Below, one piece after another: positions 1 through 7,320 of a stretch of DNA of 58,686 nucleotides. The position numbers and the translations under genes were made by a program. Every line of letters starts with the position of its first letter. Positions within the stretch are counted from its first letter, which is position 1. Location of the stretch: contig CBFIGQ010000022.1 in the NCBI GenBank assembly GCA_965662335.1, positions 1 to 58,686 of the forward strand. Reading direction: 5' to 3'. This stretch comes from Minisyncoccia bacterium. Lineage in GTDB: Bacteria > Patescibacteriota > Minisyncoccia > Phycocordibacterales > UBA9973. The notes under the pieces were generated by a model. The model made no database searches. It was not told the DNA's origin and saw only the letters and a list, made by a program, of their open reading frames with translations.

Positions 1-62
1 CAGATGTTGCTATTAAGCCACCATTCAAAAGTTGGCTTTTTTCTTTTCTACAACGTTCACGA

Positions 63-172
63 TGCTCCCTCTAGTGGACGCGTTCAGAACTCTTAATTGG
101 GTTCAAATTAAAAGAGATTTGGAGTTTTCTAAGATTTTTGAGATGGTTCCAATGGTAATACTTCAGAACTAG
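63..172. repeat. Copy A of a ~110-nt repeat family (3 copies). Its left end resembles the 3' acceptor/T-arm end of the minus-strand tRNA-Asn.
   Basis: It starts tgctccctctagtggacgcgttcagaact and ends cttcagaactag. It is near-identical to copy C over its whole length. It shares its end boxes (gtgctccctctagtggac, gttcagaact, taattgg, cttcagaact) with copy B. Confidence 0.85.
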
Positions 173-228
173 GGTATTTACAAAAAGTCTATTTGTGATA
201 TTGTTTGACCAAACAAAATCTAAGCACA

Positions 229-570
229 ATGTCAGCTAAATCAAAAAACCTTCAGGAACTTATAAACCTTATAGGTTCAAAGTATGTTTTCAATAAAGAA
301 AACTATCCAAAAATGGACGACAGTAGTCCTGAAACAAAAATGATGTTTGCAATCCAGCATAGTAAAAACCATATGGATAAATCCATCGGAGTTATAGCTG
401 GAGTATGTGAAGAATATGACCACAAAGGCAACAGGACACACCAAGGAATTACCAAGGTGGAAGAAGCTACAGTTAAAATGTTCATCAACATTCTCAAACT
501 TGCAGAAGAACTTGGTTTCTCTGCCGAGGAATTGTTTGAAAGAGTTGAAGAGTTTTACAAAGACAGGTAA
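229..570 (+). CDS. Hypothetical small all-alpha protein, possibly MazG-like NTP pyrophosphohydrolase fold
   Basis: ATG-started ORF lying between repeat copies A and B. Acidic helical segments (GVCEEYDH, KLAEELGFSAEELFERVEEF) are reminiscent of MazG-type domains. The functional call is weak. Confidence 0.35.
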   Translation: MSAKSKNLQELINLIGSKYVFNKENYPKMDDSSPETKMMFAIQHSKNHMDKSIGVIAGVCEEYDHKGNRTHQGITKVEEATVKMFINILKLAEELGFSAEELFERVEEFYKDR

Positions 571-688
571 ACAAACAAAAAACAGAAATAGAACTGCTTA
601 TTGCAAAATAGGCAGTTTTTATTTTACAAAAAGTTCTAAACCCTATTTGGGTACCAAAAATAACCTTTACAAAATAAGCTTCAAAAAA

Positions 689-799
689 GTGCTCCCTCTA
701 GTGGACAAGTTCAGAACTGCTAATTGGTATAGTATACAACAAGATTTACAGTTTAGTGGTATTTTAGGGCTATTCCCAATGCTTGAACTTCAGAACTAG
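689..799. repeat. Copy B of the ~110-nt repeat family (divergent centre, conserved ends)
   Basis: gtgctccctctagtggac at 689-706, gttcagaact, taattgg, and cttcagaactag at 788-799. The interior differs from copies A and C. Confidence 0.8.
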
Positions 800-1301
800 A
801 AGGTAAAGGTTTTGAGTTTTTGATACCCCTTATAGCAAGTATTAGTGAGATTATTTGTGCAACAACGATAATCCAAGCACCTTTTGAAGCCAATGCGTAC
901 AGAAGGAATAAATGACCAGGAATGATAAAAATCCACCCAAGACGTCGTCTGTTGTTTGCCCAGAAGTAAACCGTAAGGATAAAGAAGATGACCGCTATGA
1001 GCTCTAATGTTGTTACTGGATTGATAGTATTGAGTAGGTAGACAACGGCAACCACAATACCAATAAACACATAGTGCAGTTTCTTCAGTTTCCGAGAAAA
1101 TAGACCTAATGCTACAAGCATAAAGAATAACTCAAATGCGAGTAGTTGATAAAGCTGAAAATGCCAGCCAATAATCGCAAATAAGGCACAATCAATTGTT
1201 GTATAAAACCAAGATGAGTTTGGAGGGTTTTTACCAGAAAGTAAAAACTTCCACCAAAGGTTCATCAAGCTCTGTATTATTTGGGCAATGATTATCATCA
1301 A
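753..1301 (-). CDS. Multi-pass membrane protein, possibly PnuC-like nicotinamide riboside transporter family
   Basis: 182-aa ORF with about 6 hydrophobic helices. Two internally similar halves carry W/G-rich helix ends (FAIIGWHFQLY; RRRLGWIFIIPGHLF). The last ~16 codons and the stop lie inside repeat copy B. Confidence 0.4.
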   Translation of the reverse strand: MMIIIAQIIQSLMNLWWKFLLSGKNPPNSSWFYTTIDCALFAIIGWHFQLYQLLAFELFFMLVALGLFSRKLKKLHYVFIGIVVAVVYLLNTINPVTTLELIAVIFFILTVYFWANNRRRLGWIFIIPGHLFLLYALASKGAWIIVVAQIISLILAIRGIKNSKPLPSSSEVQALGIALKYH

Positions 1302-1350
1302 AACAATTCTAACATTTTTATGAAAAGTTCTAATCCCTATTTGGGTATCA

Positions 1351-1380
1351 AAAAATCACCTTGTAAATCAAGGTGATTTT
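1351..1380 (-). terminator. Rho-independent terminator-like hairpin directly downstream (minus strand) of repeat copy C
   Basis: aaaatcaccttg-taaat-caaggtgatttt. On the minus strand the stem is followed by TTTTTTGA. It is homologous to the hairpin after tRNA-Asn. Confidence 0.7.
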
Positions 1381-1382
1381 AA

Positions 1383-1493
1383 GTGCTCCCTCTAGTGGAC
1401 GCGTTCAGAACTCTAAATTGGACTGCAATTAAAAGAGATTTGGAAGTTTCTAAGATTTTTGAGATGGCTCCGACAATAGTACTTCAGAACTCG
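1383..1493. repeat. Copy C of the ~110-nt repeat family
   Basis: gtgctccctctagtggacgcgttcagaactctaaattgg...cttcagaactcg. It aligns end to end with copy A with a few substitutions. Confidence 0.85.
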
Positions 1494-1494
1494 T

Positions 1495-1527
1495 AAAAGA
1501 AAAACCCGCCTCAAATTGAGAACGGGT
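1495..1527 (-). terminator. Rho-independent terminator (minus strand) closing the ORF-poor unit 1530-1860
   Basis: The minus strand reads gacccgttctcaatttgaggcgggTTTTTCTTTT: a GC stem followed by a T-run. Confidence 0.7.
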
Positions 1528-1881
1528 CTGAATGTTTTTTAAAATTACACAATGACGATACGCAATCATCACCTTGCTTCTTACCAATACATTAGCTGTA
1601 GACGAAGAGTATAACCGCAACCAACTGACACTCTTCTTTTCTCTGTTGTTTCAATACACCTTGGTGGACGAACCTTACCGCGATTGTGTACCGTACCCTC
1701 TGCCTTGCTCATAGCGGAACAGATTAGGAAACAACATAAGCAGTCCTGCTTGCAAGAACACTTGTTGACTACACACCTCTTGCGAGGGATTGGATATAGA
1801 GTTAAAGAACATTCTTATTTTAGAATACATTAAATTTAGTAAAAGTAAATATCTTAGTTCTACACTCTATTTGGGTAACAA

Positions 1882-1910
1882 AAAATCACCTTGATTTACA
1901 AAGTGATTTT
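1882..1910 (-). terminator. Terminator hairpin immediately 3' of tRNA-Asn
   Basis: aaaatcaccttgatttacaaagtgatttt. On the minus strand the stem is followed by TTTTTTG. Confidence 0.7.
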
Positions 1911-1915
1911 AAGGG

Positions 1916-1987
1916 CTCCCCCGGTAGGATTCGAACCTACGACCAATCGCTTAACAGGCGACTGCGCTACCGCTGCGCCACAGGGGA
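1916..1987 (-). tRNA. tRNA-Asn (anticodon GTT)
   Basis: The reverse complement folds as a 72-nt cloverleaf: TCCCCTG/CGGGGGA acceptor, anticodon loop CTGTTAA, T-arm GTAGG-TTCGAAT-CCTAC. No CCA is encoded. Confidence 0.93.
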
Positions 1988-2047
1988 ATGTGGTATATCT
2001 AGTTTTTATCCCGAGCACTATAGCACTTTTGCGAATACTCTTCAATC

Positions 2048-2287
2048 CTATAGACGAAAATCACTCTTGTACACCGTGCGGCCCGGAAGCGCTGCGGTAT
2101 GATTCCAAAAGTCAAAATGAAACCAGCCGTAACCCGCTGGTGGGTAGGAATAGTGTGCAGGTGCCTGTGCTGCAAGCCAGGTACCAGGAGGAAGCGGGGT
2201 AGGCGCGATAAATTCTCCTCTACGTACATGCGGATACATGACCCATACAAAAAGGAGTACACCTACTATTGCCAATACTTTGCCCAT
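2048..2287 (-). CDS. Possible small membrane protein (79 aa, one TM helix then a Pro/Tyr/Trp-rich tail). The alternative is that the block is a structured RNA.
   Basis: ATG ORF with N-terminal VLAIVGVLLFVWVM and a GAGGT 11 nt upstream. However, the region is markedly GC-rich and open in several frames at once. Confidence 0.25.
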   Translation of the reverse strand: MGKVLAIVGVLLFVWVMYPHVRRGEFIAPTPLPPGTWLAAQAPAHYSYPPAGYGWFHFDFWNHTAALPGRTVYKSDFRL

Positions 2288-2345
2288 GGCGGTATACTAC
2301 CTCGCATTTTATAAATTTCAATAGGAGCCTTATTTCAAGCACTCG

Positions 2346-3761
2346 ATGCACCACTTCACCAAAAAAACCAAAATTGTTGCAACTATTGGTCCTGCAACCG
2401 AAACCAAAGAGTCGTTTACTGCTATCTTGCGCGCTGGGGTAAATGTTGCGCGTATCAACATGAGCCACGGCACGTATGACGAACAGTCCAAAAAAATAAA
2501 AACCATAAAGGCAGTGGCCAAAAAAGAAGAATATCCGCTCGCCGTACTCCTAGACCTGTGTGGCCCCAAGATCCGTATTGGAGACTTTGCGGAAGGAGTT
2601 GTGGAGCTTGTCGAAGGCGAGACTATAGTTCTTTCTGGAGAGAAATGCGAAGGAACAAAGGAGCGAGTGTATTTCAACTATCCCCATATCGAAACTGACA
2701 TCAAGGCCGGTATGATACTCATGGTAGATGATGGCAAAAAGAAGCTTGTGGTAAATAAGGTGACCGGAAGTGATATCCACTGCACGATACTCGTAGGGGG
2801 CACGACAAAAGGGCGACGCGGAGTAAACATCCCCGGAGCATATTTATCTATTGATGCACTTACCGCAAAGGATAAAAAAGATCTCGTCTTTGGGCTTGAG
2901 CAAGGGATAGACTTTGTAGCGCTTTCGTTTGTGCGAACGGCAGGAGATATTGAAGTGCTCCGCAAGCTTCTCAAAAAGCACAAATCATCGGCACAAATTG
3001 TTGCAAAAATAGAAACCCAAGAAGCTATCGATAACATCGATGCGATTATTGAGGCGACTGACGCTATCATGGTTGCGCGCGGGGACCTGGCTATTGAAGT
3101 CGGACCAGAAAAGGTACCATCGCTACAAAAGGAGATTATCAAGAAATGTAACGATATAGGAAAGCCGGTAATCGTTGCGACGCAGATGCTTGAGAGCATG
3201 ATTACGACTCCAGTACCAACTCGTGCAGAAGTGTCTGATGTTGCAAATGCAATCTTTGATGGAGCTGATGCGGTGATGCTCTCAGAAGAAACGACACTTG
3301 GGAGATACCCAACGCAAGCAGTGCAGATGATGCACGACATTGCAGTGCGTACTGAGGCGACTATAGGTACCCACCGCCGTCATAAGGTACACCCAGGTGA
3401 TGTTGTTGATTCTATTTCTTCGTCTGTTGTTCATAATGCAGAAGATGTGTGCGCAACTGCAATCGTAGCGCTCACGGAGACCGGCTCGACTCCGCGTATG
3501 ATTGCGCGCTACAAGCCGCAGCAGCCTATCATTGCCTTTACACCGCACGAAGACGTCATGCGGCAGCTACTGCTTGTGTACGGCTGTTATCCTGCAAAAG
3601 TAAAGCCATTTACATTCATAGCGCAAGTCATACCTACGGTAAACGCGACTCTTAAAAAAGAAGAGGTGGCGCAAAAAGGTGATCATATCGTTGTATCGGC
3701 TGGTGTCCCATTTCAGACTGCTGGCAGCACCAACATGCTCATGATACTCACGGTGGAGTAG
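2346..3761 (+). CDS. pyk: Pyruvate kinase
   Basis: 471 aa with KKTKIVATIGPAT, NMSHG and MVARGDLAIEV motifs. Confidence 0.95.
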   Translation: MHHFTKKTKIVATIGPATETKESFTAILRAGVNVARINMSHGTYDEQSKKIKTIKAVAKKEEYPLAVLLDLCGPKIRIGDFAEGVVELVEGETIVLSGEKCEGTKERVYFNYPHIETDIKAGMILMVDDGKKKLVVNKVTGSDIHCTILVGGTTKGRRGVNIPGAYLSIDALTAKDKKDLVFGLEQGIDFVALSFVRTAGDIEVLRKLLKKHKSSAQIVAKIETQEAIDNIDAIIEATDAIMVARGDLAIEVGPEKVPSLQKEIIKKCNDIGKPVIVATQMLESMITTPVPTRAEVSDVANAIFDGADAVMLSEETTLGRYPTQAVQMMHDIAVRTEATIGTHRRHKVHPGDVVDSISSSVVHNAEDVCATAIVALTETGSTPRMIARYKPQQPIIAFTPHEDVMRQLLLVYGCYPAKVKPFTFIAQVIPTVNATLKKEEVAQKGDHIVVSAGVPFQTAGSTNMLMILTVE

Positions 3762-5456: not shown

Positions 5457-6740
5457 TTACTTGAGGTGCTTAAGATAGGTAGCAAGTTCTTTGATAGGTA
5501 CAGTATCCTGTGAGCGAGTTTCCATGTTGCGCACAATGACAGTGTCGTGTACTGCTTCCATTTGCCCAAATATCATGACATACGGTGTGCCGCTTTTCTC
5601 AGCGACGGCAAGCTGCGCGCCGAGGCTGTCTTTGGAGAGAGATTGCATGACGGGGATGTGCGCCTTGCGGAGGATCTCAATGACATTGAGGCTTTTGAGT
5701 TTTGCTTCGATGCCGACCTGGATGAAATACACCTTTGGCTTTTTGATAATGCGCGGAGAGAGATCTTTAAACCATGGCTGCTCGATGAGTCTGTCGATGC
5801 CGATAGAGCCACCCATAGCAGGTACATCCTTTTTTGCACCAAGCTGTTTGCCGAGATAGTCATAGCGACCACCGCCTGCGATTGTCATCGGGCTTCCGTC
5901 TTCATTTTCTACAATAACCTCAAACACAGTGTGCGTATAGTACGAGAGCCCGCGCACGAGATTTTTGTCTATTTGATACGGGATACCCATCTGATCGAGA
6001 CATTCAAGCACTTCTTTGAAGTGTTTTTTGCCACTCGGAGAAAGATAACTCACAGAGTCCGGGGCGTTTTGATTTATTTCAATAGTTGAAGCTTCTTTGG
6101 AGTCGAGAATACGAAGCGGATTTGTTTTGAGGCGTTCCCGATCTATAGGGGCAAGCTTGTCGATGTGTTTTTTGTAGTAGCTGGTGAGCTCGCGGATGTA
6201 GGCCGGGCGCGAGTCCTTGTCACCGATAGAGTTTATCGTGACAAAAAGGTTTGTTGCACCAGCTTCTTCGAGAATCGTATAGATAGTTTTGATGACGAGC
6301 GCGTCAACAATACTTTTCTCGCTTCCAAGTGCGTCTACGTCAAACTGATAGAACTGTCGGTATCGTCCGCGCTGTGGCTTGTCATGGCGAAATACTGGTC
6401 CAGAGTGATATAGGAGTACTGGCTGAGGCTGTGCCTGCATGCCGCCTTCGATATATGCGCGCATGAGCCCCGCAGTCTGCTCAGGGCGCATTGCGAGACG
6501 GTCGCCACCTTTGGTCTTGAGTGTATACATTTCCTTGTCGACGATATCAGTACCGATGCCGACCGCAGTCGTAAAGGTATCCTCGTACTCCAGGATAGGA
6601 GTCTCTATAGGCTTAAAGCCATAGTACACAGCTACTTCTTGTGCCTTTTCAAAAAAGCCTTGGAACTTGTAGTAGTCATCTCCGATAATATCTCGCATGC
6701 CTTTAGGGCTTGAGAGTTCTTGTTTTTTTGGATTATTCAT
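5457..6740 (-). CDS. hisS: Histidine--tRNA ligase
   Basis: 427 aa with GMRDIIGDDY, FRHDKPQRGRYRQF and GGGRYD motifs. Confidence 0.95.
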   Translation of the reverse strand: MNNPKKQELSSPKGMRDIIGDDYYKFQGFFEKAQEVAVYYGFKPIETPILEYEDTFTTAVGIGTDIVDKEMYTLKTKGGDRLAMRPEQTAGLMRAYIEGGMQAQPQPVLLYHSGPVFRHDKPQRGRYRQFYQFDVDALGSEKSIVDALVIKTIYTILEEAGATNLFVTINSIGDKDSRPAYIRELTSYYKKHIDKLAPIDRERLKTNPLRILDSKEASTIEINQNAPDSVSYLSPSGKKHFKEVLECLDQMGIPYQIDKNLVRGLSYYTHTVFEVIVENEDGSPMTIAGGGRYDYLGKQLGAKKDVPAMGGSIGIDRLIEQPWFKDLSPRIIKKPKVYFIQVGIEAKLKSLNVIEILRKAHIPVMQSLSKDSLGAQLAVAEKSGTPYVMIFGQMEAVHDTVIVRNMETRSQDTVPIKELATYLKHLK

Positions 6741-7320
6741 AGTCTACGTGTGCTGGTAATAGTGCAATAGCATTAAGTGGAAGGAGACGAAGGAGTGCGC
6801 GACCGCGAATGTTTTCTTTTGGAAGTGCGCCCCATGATCGAGAGTCGTAGCTGCCGCTTCGGTTGTCTCCGAGTACATAGTACTCGCCTTGTGGAACAGT
6901 AATATGGACGTTATCACTGCTCTTGTGCGTAATAAAGTCTTCGCTAAGTGTAAAACCTTTTGGATGCTGGGTATTGGTAATAGTAACCACACTGCCTTTG
7001 ATATCTACCGTGTCTCCAGGAAGTCCGATGATGCGCTTGATATAGTATTTGCTTGGTTCTGGTGGTGCTTTAAAGACGATCACATCACCGCGCTCTGGCT
7101 CGCGAAATCGATATGAAAGCTCGTCGATAATGAGGTACTGCTTGTCTTTGATATCGGGGTCCATAGAGTTACCCGAGACGATAAAGGGCCGCACGATAAA
7201 TGCTTGAATGAGAAGCGCGAGGCCTATTGCAGCGCCGACGTAGAGGATATTTTCAATGAATATGAAAAATTTGCTGCGAGGCTTTTCAAGATGAGGGGAA
7301 GAAGTAGTGCGTGGATCCAT
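6733..7320 (-). CDS. lepB: Signal peptidase I
   Basis: SGNSMDP catalytic Ser box, GDVIVFK and VLGDNRSGSYDSR. I chose the ATG at 7320; a TTG at 7362 is the alternative start. Confidence 0.88.
   Translation of the reverse strand: MDPRTTSSPHLEKPRSKFFIFIENILYVGAAIGLALLIQAFIVRPFIVSGNSMDPDIKDKQYLIIDELSYRFREPERGDVIVFKAPPEPSKYYIKRIIGLPGDTVDIKGSVVTITNTQHPKGFTLSEDFITHKSSDNVHITVPQGEYYVLGDNRSGSYDSRSWGALPKENIRGRALLRLLPLNAIALLPAHVDYE

What the first reader, a model, noticed from the sequence alone, without database searches (positions are those of the whole stretch)
1..1987. Three ~110-nt repeats that copy the 3' end and terminator flank of tRNA-Asn and delimit ~650-bp one-gene modules
Seen: copies lie at 63-172, 689-799 and 1383-1493. 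All three share exact boxes: gtgctccctctagtggac at the left end, then gttcagaact and taattgg, and cttcagaact at the right end. A and C are near-identical throughout, while B has a different interior. The two internal boxes are direct repeats of AGTTCTGAA on the minus strand. Copies B and C are each preceded by a segment (agttcta..ctatttgggta.caaaaa plus a hairpin) that is homologous to the sequence immediately 3' of the genuine minus-strand tRNA-Asn at 1856-1912. The copy C version includes the same terminator hairpin (aaaatcacctt...ggtgatttt); the hairpin is decayed in B. The repeat's left end aligns with the tRNA acceptor/T-arm end (gggctcccccggtaggattcgaacc versus gtgctccctctagtggacgcgttcagaac), but I cannot fold it as a functional tRNA. 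Each inter-repeat module carries a single small gene. One is a MazG-like ORF. The other is a PnuC-like membrane ORF whose last codons and stop lie inside copy B. Established: elements integrating at tRNA 3' ends carry a tRNA 3' fragment plus a replacement terminator in attP and leave such fragments as direct repeats. Inference: this is either a stack of decayed or miniature integrative elements at tRNA-Asn, or an uncharacterised tRNA-derived structured RNA or recombination site that shuffles single-gene cassettes. The conserved ends with a variable centre favour a functional site over neutral decay.
Basis: partly seen in the sequence, partly recalled or inferred. Interest (0 to 1): 0.62.

Follow-up and report, generated by a model that had tools for sequence, protein, structure and literature searches.

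The report
Severed integrase tails marking gene cassettes
The three repeats are not tRNA copies or RNA genes but cut-off last 36 codons of a serine integrase whose docking site lies inside its own gene, and they mark three small integrase-less gene cassettes stacked at a tRNA-Asn gene that come and go between strains of this tiny-genome (Paceibacteria) bacterium.

Summary
The repeats are real (63-172, 689-799, 1383-1493; a fourth lies on contig C47). They are protein-coding on the + strand. Each is the last ~36 codons (LPLVDxFRTLNW...LQN*) of a large serine recombinase (LSR).

In relatives, a 500-550-aa LSR gene runs up to ...NW and then into the 3' end of tRNA-Asn. The missing tail lies 6.5-9 kb away at the far end of the element. 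A 7.4-kb apparently circular contig carries the uninterrupted gene. So attP lies inside the integrase ORF, and integration at a 6-bp core (GCTCCC) splits the gene.

This genome has no cognate integrase. The window holds three core-to-core units, each made of a tail remnant, cargo and a terminator flank 'F'. Public metagenomes hold the same species with the empty site (window 63 joined to 1915), with another cassette, and with partial stacks. Single cassettes also occur elsewhere with other neighbours.

The 'tRNA-derived structured RNA' is not. How integrase-less cassettes are inserted remains inferred.

The design is a bacterial, serine-recombinase analogue of the archaeal 'suicidal' and Mx8 integrases. 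I found no description of it in the papers searched, though other agents of this scan noted it in other genomes.

The parts
1..63 (+). Chromosomal left arm 'X' of the attachment site. It is the downstream region and + strand terminator of a BtpA-like gene that lies on contig C47.
   Evidence: Identical to C47:91445-91507. In runs X3 and X2 it is joined directly to tRNA-Asn.
64..69 (.). Left copy of the 6-bp crossover core GCTCCC.
   Evidence: The empty-site joint 63->1915 has 6 letters that fit either side.
63..172 (+). Repeat A: severed last 36 codons of a large serine recombinase (MLPLVDAFRTLNWVQIKRDLEFSKIFEMVPMVILQN*). This is the P' arm and forms the attR-type junction X|tail.
   Evidence: It is 91% identical to the copy in G018.
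229..570 (+). Cargo of cassette 1: a 113-aa hypothetical protein. The 'MazG-like' label is not supported.
   Evidence: No family hit. The 16 relatives are all unnamed or 'hypothetical', from Pacebacteria.
632..688 (-). Flank F'' (decayed hairpin), the right end of cassette 1.
   Evidence: The stretch tail + ORF + F'' is 81% identical over 619 nt to GCA_017992255.1 (L089), where the neighbours differ.
689..799 (+). Repeat B: severed integrase tail (VLPLVDKFRTANWYSIQQDLQFSGILGLFPMLELQN*), the left end of cassette 2.
   Evidence: It is 85% identical to the tail at the left end of the complete element of G019.
753..1301 (-). Cargo of cassette 2: a 182-aa membrane protein, weakly PnuC/NMN-transporter-like. 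It is transcribed away from flank F'.
   Evidence: It is 99.5-100% identical in runs X4, X5, X7 and X10, in other contexts.
1326..1382 (-). Flank F' (AGTTCTAATCCCTATTTGGGTATC plus an intact terminator hairpin), the right end of cassette 2.
1383..1493 (+). Repeat C: severed integrase tail (VLPLVDAFRTLNWTAIKRDLEVSKIFEMAPTIVLQNS*), the left end of cassette 3.
   Evidence: It is 88% identical to the copy in G025.
1494..1855 (.). Cargo of cassette 3: an ORF-poor 362 nt with a terminator at its left end. Its function is not determined.
   Evidence: The unit is absent in X5 and X10, where the PnuC cassette abuts tRNA-Asn (joint 1348->1879).
1856..1914 (-). Flank F: the terminator module now serving tRNA-Asn and the right end of cassette 3. 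It is inserted DNA, not the ancestral flank.
   Evidence: It is absent from the empty site.
1915..1920 (.). Right copy of the core GCTCCC. It spans the last acceptor-stem bases, the discriminator and the next base of the tRNA.
1913..1988 (-). tRNA-Asn(GTT), intact. Its 3' end is the B' arm of the attachment site.
   Evidence: ARAGORN; Rfam tRNA 69 bits.

Best explanation
The 110-nt repeats are the severed 3' ends (the last ~36 codons plus the stop codon) of large serine recombinase (LSR) genes.

SHOWN. In this family of 7-9-kb Paceibacteria elements, attP lies inside the integrase ORF. The circular element encodes a ~535-545-aa enzyme ending ...NW-LPLVDxFRTLNW...LQN*. Recombination with the 3' end of tRNA-Asn at a shared 6-bp core (GCTCCC) leaves the integrase body reading into the antisense tRNA at one end of the insert. 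The 36-codon tail is left at the other end, joined to whatever flanked the tRNA. The tRNA itself is unchanged. In this window there is no integrase body. Positions 64-1914 are inserted DNA made of three core-to-core units, each consisting of a tail remnant, cargo and a terminator flank F. The flank F of the last unit now terminates tRNA-Asn. The insert is polymorphic in nature: the same species occurs with an empty site, with a different cassette, and with this stack. Individual cassettes also occur in other genomes with different neighbours.

INFERRED. The stack grew by successive site-specific insertions at the tRNA-proximal core, so the newest unit lies next to the tRNA. Each unit brought a new F|tRNA site. 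The insertions were catalysed in trans by a split-gene LSR from a co-resident or transient full element. The cassettes themselves are either reduced elements or captured segments.
For: CODING, NOT RNA
- 20 of 22 distinct copies from many families keep one open frame that ends at the same stop.
- Among codon pairs differing at one base, 990 are synonymous and 1009 non-synonymous, against 21% synonymous expected. Variability by codon position runs 3 > 1 > 2.

SPLIT GENE
- 67 of 301 genomes of the order match a 136-aa integrase remnant.
- Full ORFs of 499-552 aa match only up to residue ~101-105 (...NW).
- A separate match to residues ~99-135 lies on the same strand, 6.5-9 kb upstream (G313, G099, G332, G259, G240, G248, G296).
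- The integrase bodies overlap tRNA-Asn convergently.
- G019 holds a whole element on a 7.2-kb contig: tail at 120-228, integrase at 5545-7077, tRNA-Asn at 7063-7137.
- Pfam finds Resolvase + Recombinase + Zn_ribbon_recom.

INTACT FORM
- P0021 (539 aa) ends ...SPNWLPLVDKFRTANW...LQN. It lies on a 7,412-nt contig with a 43-nt exact terminal overlap and no tRNA.
- P0084 and P0091 are likewise uninterrupted.

EMPTY SITE AND OTHER ALLELES
- The joint 63->1915 has 6 shared letters. In X3 it sits on a 10.6-kb contig at depth 43 (equal to the flank depth) with 0 mismatches. It is also present in X2.
- The D-cassette/Y|tRNA allele is seen.

CASSETTE MODULARITY
-.

NO COGNATE INTEGRASE
- The best LSR paralogues in this genome are 27-30% identical.
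Against: - No circular cassette junction (F joined to the tail of the same unit) was seen in the contigs laid.
- By the canonical rules for large serine integrases, a site made of a B-type arm plus a P'-type arm (F|tail) is an attR and should not recombine with attB.
- F occurs in no integrase-bearing element examined, so its origin is unexplained.
- The joint that removes cassette 3 lies inside F (15 shared letters), not at the core. That fits homologous recombination between F copies as well as site-specific loss.
- Logan contigs are short and drop rare variants.
- No experiment supports any of the recombination steps.
Confidence: 0.82

Rival explanations
1. The three units are wrecks of three full-size LSR elements. 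Each integrated at tRNA-Asn and was then whittled down by deletions that removed the integrase body. No integrase-less cassette was ever mobile as such.
For: - Truncated integrase remnants contiguous with a tail occur next to tRNA-Asn in G026, G002, G314 and G036.
- No cassette circle was seen.
- Allele exchange within the species could occur by homologous recombination through X and the tRNA/pyk side.
Against: - After a normal integration the tRNA abuts the integrase body. Deletion cannot recreate an F|tRNA junction at exactly the 6-bp core three times.
- F is absent from all full elements.
- Cassette 1 is conserved core-to-core (81% over 619 nt) in another genome with different neighbours.
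- The PnuC cassette is 100% identical next to tRNA-Asn in an organism whose adjacent DNA differs.
Confidence: 0.3
2. The 110-nt unit is a functional, tRNA-derived structured small RNA, or a hairpin recombination site of the integron attC kind.
For: - Conserved ends with a variable middle.
- A terminator follows copies B and C on the minus strand.
- A 9-bp motif (AGTTCTGAA/TTCAGAACT) recurs.
Against: - No tRNA or tmRNA call and no Rfam family.
- Minimum free energies are no better than shuffles on either strand, with z from -0.9 to +0.9.
- The variation follows codon structure, and the unit is the end of a 540-aa ORF.
- Cargo genes face both ways.
- No tyrosine integron integrase is involved.
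Confidence: 0.03
3. An old, inert tandem duplication of one flank-plus-repeat unit, with no mobility.
For: Spacing is regular at 627, 694 and 530 nt.
Against: - The cargo of the three units is unrelated.
- Copy A is closer to G018 (91%) and copy B to G019 (85%) than they are to each other (72%).
- The insert is present or absent at the exact core in natural populations.
Confidence: 0.02

Closest known systems
SSV-type ('suicidal') integrases of archaeal viruses and plasmids (SSV1, pTN3, pT26-2)
   Same: - The recombination site lies within the integrase's own gene.
- Integration at a tRNA gene leaves an N-part and a C-part of the gene at the two ends of the insert (PMC8371274).
   Different: - They are tyrosine recombinases in archaea; the review states that such enzymes occur exclusively in archaea.
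- Here the enzyme is a bacterial large serine recombinase.
- Only the last ~36 codons are removed, so the integrated gene may stay active.
Myxophage Mx8 IntP/IntX
   Same: attP lies inside the 3' part of the int gene, so integration gives the integrase a new C-terminus (PMC6070905; Tojo 1996 as cited in PMC4383910).
   Different: - It is a tyrosine recombinase carried by a phage.
- No cassette stack is reported.
Phage and ICE large serine integrases (phiC31, Bxb1, A118, SPbeta SprA)
   Same: - The same three-domain enzyme.
- Short att sites with a small shared core.
- attL and attR hybrids after integration.
   Different: - In those systems attP lies outside the gene.
[quoted passage not shown]
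- Here the target is the 3' end of tRNA-Asn (tRNA-His in one relative).
SCC/SCCmec composite islands driven by Ccr serine recombinases (from my own knowledge, not tested here)
   Same: - An LSR-driven stack of elements at the 3' end of one conserved gene.
- Recombinase-less units bounded by repeated att cores, thought to be moved in trans.
   Different: - The target is rlmH/orfX, not a tRNA.
- The att core is not inside the ccr genes.
- The units are tens of kb, not 0.5-0.7 kb.
Tycheposons and tRNA-linked islands of Prochlorococcus (bioRxiv 10.1101/2020.12.28.424599)
   Same: - A streamlined genome.
- Repeated integrations at one tRNA, with newcomers pushing older elements outward.
- Degenerate remnants, and strain-level presence or absence.
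   Different: - They use mostly tyrosine recombinases.
- The separators are partial tRNA copies, not integrase tails.
Integron gene-cassette arrays
   Same: A row of mostly single-gene, recombinase-less units inserted at one docking site. Each boundary is a hybrid of two neighbouring units.
   Different: - No IntI tyrosine integrase and no attC hairpin.
- Cargo is in both orientations.
- The boundary is a protein-coding relic plus a terminator.

Membership tests
Large serine recombinase integrative element (attP x attB) | A recombinase with a Resolvase catalytic domain, a Recombinase domain and a zinc-ribbon domain. | tested here: met
   Met in relatives: L054 and L057 integrases hit PF00239, PF07508 and PF13408, as do 269 homologues. 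In the window's own genome no cognate copy exists; the best paralogues are 27-30% identical. The window therefore holds only relics.
Large serine recombinase integrative element (attP x attB) | Insert bounded by hybrid sites sharing a short core, with an unoccupied attB in relatives. | tested here: met
   GCTCCC lies at 64-69 and 1915-1920. The empty-site joint 63->1915 is found in X3 and X2.
Large serine recombinase integrative element (attP x attB) | A circular or excised form carrying attP. | tested here: met
   The 7,412-nt contig L091 has a 43-nt exact terminal overlap, an intact 539-aa integrase containing ...CCTAACTGGCTCCCTCTCGTGGAC..., and no tRNA. The overlap is shorter than the assembler's k-mer, so circularity is likely but not proven.
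Large serine recombinase integrative element (attP x attB) | Catalysis of attP x attB recombination by the enzyme. | not testable with these tools
   Needs an in vitro or E. coli assay.
SSV-type 'suicidal' integrase | The att site lies inside the integrase ORF, so the gene is split by integration. | tested here: met
SSV-type 'suicidal' integrase | A tyrosine recombinase fold and chemistry, in an archaeal host. | tested here: not met
   The enzyme has serine recombinase domains. The host is a Paceibacteria-type bacterium according to the source names of homologues.
tRNA gene, tRNA fragment or known small RNA | A cloverleaf or a match to a curated RNA family. | tested here: not met
   ARAGORN finds only the true tRNA-Asn. 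Rfam at E<=10 finds nothing on the repeats. Folding z-scores lie between -0.9 and +0.9.
Integron cassette array | An IntI tyrosine integrase, structured attC sites and co-oriented cassettes. | tested here: not met
   No stable hairpin. Cargo lies on both strands. The associated recombinase is an LSR. An IntI search of the genome was not run.
Integrase-less cassette mobilised in trans (SCC-like) | The same core-to-core unit occurs in different genomic contexts. | tested here: met
   Cassette 1 in L089. The PnuC cassette in X4, X5, X7 and X10.
Integrase-less cassette mobilised in trans (SCC-like) | A circular intermediate, or demonstrated trans-mobilisation. | tested here: inconclusive
   No back-joint of a cassette on itself was seen in short Logan contigs. 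The X4 joint 1435->750 is ambiguous.

The most novel reading that the evidence does not exclude
Paceibacteria may run a gene-capture platform at tRNA-Asn based on a large serine recombinase whose attP is built into its own 3' end. Two ideas go together here.

1. Tail swap as an isoform switch. The enzyme made from the circle carries the conserved 36-residue tail. The enzyme made from the integrated copy lacks it.

2. Trans-mobilisation of small cassettes. Units of 0.5-0.7 kb (tail relic + cargo + terminator) are inserted and removed in trans at the tRNA-proximal core. One possible route is recombination between a cassette circle bearing F|tail and an occupied site (integrase body|tRNA). That reaction would restore the full-length integrase gene and recreate a free F|tRNA site.
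Probability: 0.35. Interest if true: 0.8.

Novelty: new variant of a known kind. Interest (0 to 1): 0.6.

Why it matters
- It turns a puzzling 'tRNA-like repeat' into a readable record of mobile-element traffic in an ultra-small genome.
- It shows that self-splitting of an integrase gene by its own attachment site is not confined to archaea and to tyrosine recombinases, as a recent review states (PMC8371274).
- It shows that serine integrases can specialise on tRNA 3' ends.
- The conserved tail that is present only in the episomal enzyme is a candidate built-in directionality or stability switch. This bears on how serine integrases are controlled and on their use as genome-engineering tools.
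- The strain-variable cassette stack is a concrete route by which bacteria with 0.7-Mb genomes exchange single accessory genes.

Tried and rejected
- Small RNA or tRNA-like gene. ARAGORN, Rfam at E<=10 and single-sequence folds on both strands gave nothing.
- Further copies or a full-length paralogue in the genome. nhmmer and tblastn found only the four tails.
- Pfam and NCBIfam on the 136-aa remnant gave no hit, because the C-terminal third of these LSRs is not covered by any model.
- Elements carrying their own F|tRNA-Asn copy. No internal tRNA was found in six full elements, and no F in any full element. Idea rejected.
- F as the ancestral chromosomal flank. Rejected by the empty site and because most genomes of the order share only the tRNA, not F.
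- F as a decayed piece of the integrase 3' region. I compared them by eye only and was not convinced.
- Cargo annotation by PHROGs, PDB sequences and homologue names gave no function for the 113-aa ORF.
- Literature. I found no paper on a bacterial LSR with an intragenic attP or on Patescibacteria tRNA-Asn cassette stacks. One search failed on syntax.
Full report
OBSERVATION

A second family of 65 nt lies at 632-696, 1326-1390 and 1856-1920. Its last member is the sequence just 3' of the minus-strand tRNA-Asn(GTT) at 1913-1988, including its hairpin.

The genome has 755 kb in 84 contigs, and the window is the start of contig C22. Only one more copy exists in the genome, 586 nt from the end of contig C47. 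The 62 nt before it are identical to window 1-62, while the copy itself differs from A. The assembly therefore forks at this point.

NOT AN RNA

- ARAGORN and Rfam (E up to 10) find nothing on the repeats.
- Folds of either strand are no better than shuffles.

IT IS CODING

On the + strand all copies read LPLVDxFRTLNWxxIKRDLEFSKIFExxPxxxLQN and stop at the same place. I collected 22 distinct copies from the genus and from other families of the order. Twenty keep this frame open, one has a 1-nt deletion, and one has a stop only in the codon just before the conserved frame.

Among codon pairs that differ at one base, 990 are synonymous and 1009 are not, where 21% synonymous is expected. Variability by codon position runs third > first > second.

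In G026 the unit is the end of a 136-aa remnant ORF.

WHAT THE PROTEIN IS

I searched 301 genomes of the order with that remnant. 67 genomes have matches. Many carry a 499-552-aa ORF that matches only up to residue ~101-105 (...NW). A separate short match to residues ~99-135 lies on the same strand, 6.5-9 kb upstream on the same contig (G313, G099, G332, G259, G240, G248, G296).

The long ORFs have the Resolvase, Recombinase and zinc-ribbon domains of large serine recombinases. Their 3' ends overlap the 3' end of tRNA-Asn convergently, and one relative uses tRNA-His. They finish in residues read from the antisense tRNA (...NWLRGLDSNQRP).

In the same genus, G019 holds a whole element on a 7.2-kb contig: tail at 120-228, cargo, integrase at 5545-7077, tRNA-Asn at 7063-7137.

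Cargo in these elements includes restriction-modification systems and a conserved 372-376-aa protein of unknown family.

THE UNINTERRUPTED GENE EXISTS

Among 269 homologues, several of 531-547 aa end ...NWLPLVDKFRTANW...LQN (P0021, P0084, P0091). P0021 lies on a 7,412-nt contig with a 43-nt exact terminal overlap. The contig has no tRNA, and the sequence CCTAACTG-GCTCCC-TCTCGTGGAC lies inside the ORF. It also encodes a 59-aa HTH_17 (excisionase-family) protein.

So attP lies inside the integrase gene. The circle makes a tailed enzyme, and the integrated copy makes a tail-less one.

THE SITES

| Site | Left arm | Core | Right arm |
|---|---|---|---|
| attP (L091) | ...AGTCCTAACTG | GCTCCC | TCTCGTGGACAAGTTCAGAAC |
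| attB, empty (this species) | ...ACGTTCACGAT | GCTCCC | CCGGTAGGATTCGAACC |
| attR (repeat A) | ...ACGTTCACGAT | GCTCCC | TCTAGTGGACGCGTTCAGAAC |
| attL (G019) | ...ACCCCTAACTG | GCTCCC | CGGGTAGGGATCGAACC |

- The core is the last acceptor-stem bases, the discriminator and the next base of the tRNA, so the tRNA is not altered.
I read it as two right-hand arms bound by the same protein (inference).
- Left arms of attB differ freely between genomes.

THE EMPTY SITE AND THE ALLELES

I laid public contigs on the window.
- Run X3 (wastewater) has a 10.6-kb contig at depth 43, equal to the flank depth, with no mismatch. It joins window 63 to 1915 with six shared letters. X2 has the same joint at lower depth.
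- From the C47 side, the same contigs continue from X straight into CCGGTAGGATTCGAACC.
- Hence all of 64-1914, including the hairpin flank F next to the tRNA, is inserted DNA.
- In the source-like run X1 the stack has depth ~9.9 and the C47-type cassette ~2.8.
- X20 has the same flanks with a different flank (Y) on the tRNA. This matches the D cassette, whose right part is homologous to the region leading to Y|tRNA in G013 and G026.

At least three alleles therefore exist in one species: empty, D, and A-B-C.

CASSETTES AS UNITS

The insert parses into three core-to-core units.

| Unit | Content | Coordinates |
|---|---|---|
| 1 | tail A, 113-aa ORF, F'' | 64-688 |
| 2 | tail B, PnuC-like ORF, F' | 689-1382 |
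| 3 | tail C, 362 nt, F | 1383-1914 |

- Unit 1 is 81% identical over 619 nt to a stretch of GCA_017992255.1. There it is preceded by another flank and followed by a different degenerate tail and a kinase-like gene before tRNA-Asn.
- The PnuC gene is 99.5-100% identical in X4, X5, X7 and X10. In X5 and X10 it is followed by F and tRNA-Asn without unit 3, and the DNA beyond the tRNA differs from the window.
- X7 holds an F''-like flank joined to tRNA-Asn at the core (joint 690->1915, low depth, six mismatches).
- Tail A is closer to G018 (91%) and tail B to G019 (85%) than they are to each other.
- Similar stacks of F|tail junctions occur in G200, G259, G286, G044, G002 and L087.

WHAT IS NOT EXPLAINED

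- F (AAAGTTCTGAACCCTATTTGGGTATCAAAA plus a hairpin) is 73-83% conserved between distant families. It occurs only as F|tail or F|tRNA, never in an integrase-bearing element.
- A normal integration leaves the integrase body, not F, on the tRNA. The stack therefore needs either trans-insertion of circles bearing F|tail, or another route that recreates F|tRNA.
- By the canonical rules, F|tail is an attR. One reaction allowed by those rules is circle-attR x chromosomal attL. It would give body|tail (a restored gene), then cargo, then F|tRNA. Remnants with exactly that order exist in G026, G002 and G314. This is inference.
- The loss of unit 3 in X5 and X10 maps inside F (15 shared letters), so homologous recombination between F copies also acts.
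- This genome has no cognate integrase.

LITERATURE

- A review states that integrases which split their own gene are exclusive to archaea (PMC8371274).
[quoted passage not shown] It names Mx8 and SSV as integrases that extend across attP (PMC4383910).
- Mx8 integration gives int a new 3' end (PMC6070905).
- A Patescibacteria paper on horizontal gene transfer reports genomic islands with restriction-modification systems but no recombinase analysis (PMC12455944).
- Tycheposons show the same pushing-outward logic at tRNAs.
- After I had reached this reading, I found that other agents of this scan had noted the same design in other CPR genomes. That is agreement, not independent proof.

VERDICT

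The feature is a new variant of known kinds: serine-integrase elements, and integrases whose ORF spans attP. It has an unresolved and interesting question about how integrase-less cassettes are moved.

Noticed in passing
L075 3344-3621, L074 6155-6427, L073 6464-6734 (relatives G013, G036, G340); corresponds to window 1953/1954: In several relatives tRNA-Asn is interrupted in the anticodon loop by a 290-550-nt group I intron (Rfam Intron_gpI, 55-71 bits). The intron carries an HNH-like ORF. The 3' exon that forms the attachment site stays intact.
   Followed up: partly
window 163-172/632-640, 790-799/1326-1334, 1484-1493/1856-1864: Each cargo segment is bracketed by an inverted 9-bp motif. TTCAGAACT (the LQN-stop of the tail) lies on its left and AGTTCT(A/G)A (the start of F) on its right. 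A third copy, GTTCAGAAC, lies 20 nt into each tail. I could not tell whether these are extra protein-binding sites or coincidence.
   Followed up: partly
window 1352-1380 versus 1882-1910: The two intact F hairpins have the same stems but reverse-complementary loops (GTAAATC versus GATTTAC). This looks like a flip of the palindrome's loop.
   Followed up: no
C47:91617-92202 (L003 1610-2195); L075 3700-3830; L010 1020-1140: The D-type cassettes of G000, G013 and G026 share the terminator after the tail and a conserved leader (AGAGATAACTCAATAA...) up to the tRNA. They carry three unrelated ORFs between these, which looks like gene replacement between conserved ends.
   Followed up: no
window 1990-2362: The GC-rich block between tRNA-Asn and pyk is replaced by 558 other letters in the organism of run X10, which shares the PnuC cassette and tRNA-Asn at 100% identity.
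   Followed up: no
G000 contigs C39:279-1670, C45:5686-6927, C9:49-1095: The genome holds three other large serine recombinase genes, only 27-30% identical to the tRNA-Asn family. Their targets were not examined.
   Followed up: no
L075 4159-5451 (G013): A different LSR paralogue (33% identical) reads in frame, through a terminator-like hairpin, into a tail copy. This gives a 430+-aa open frame. It is probably a chance read-through at an attR-type junction.
   Followed up: partly
L054 7344-8474, L055 4341-5471, L072 2269-3387, L091 139-1257: Every full element carries a conserved 372-376-aa protein (MIDTxCLLxPK...). It matches no Pfam family above threshold (one weak sub-threshold hit, DERM, E 7e-4) and no PHROG, and it is a candidate replication or transfer function.
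   Followed up: partly
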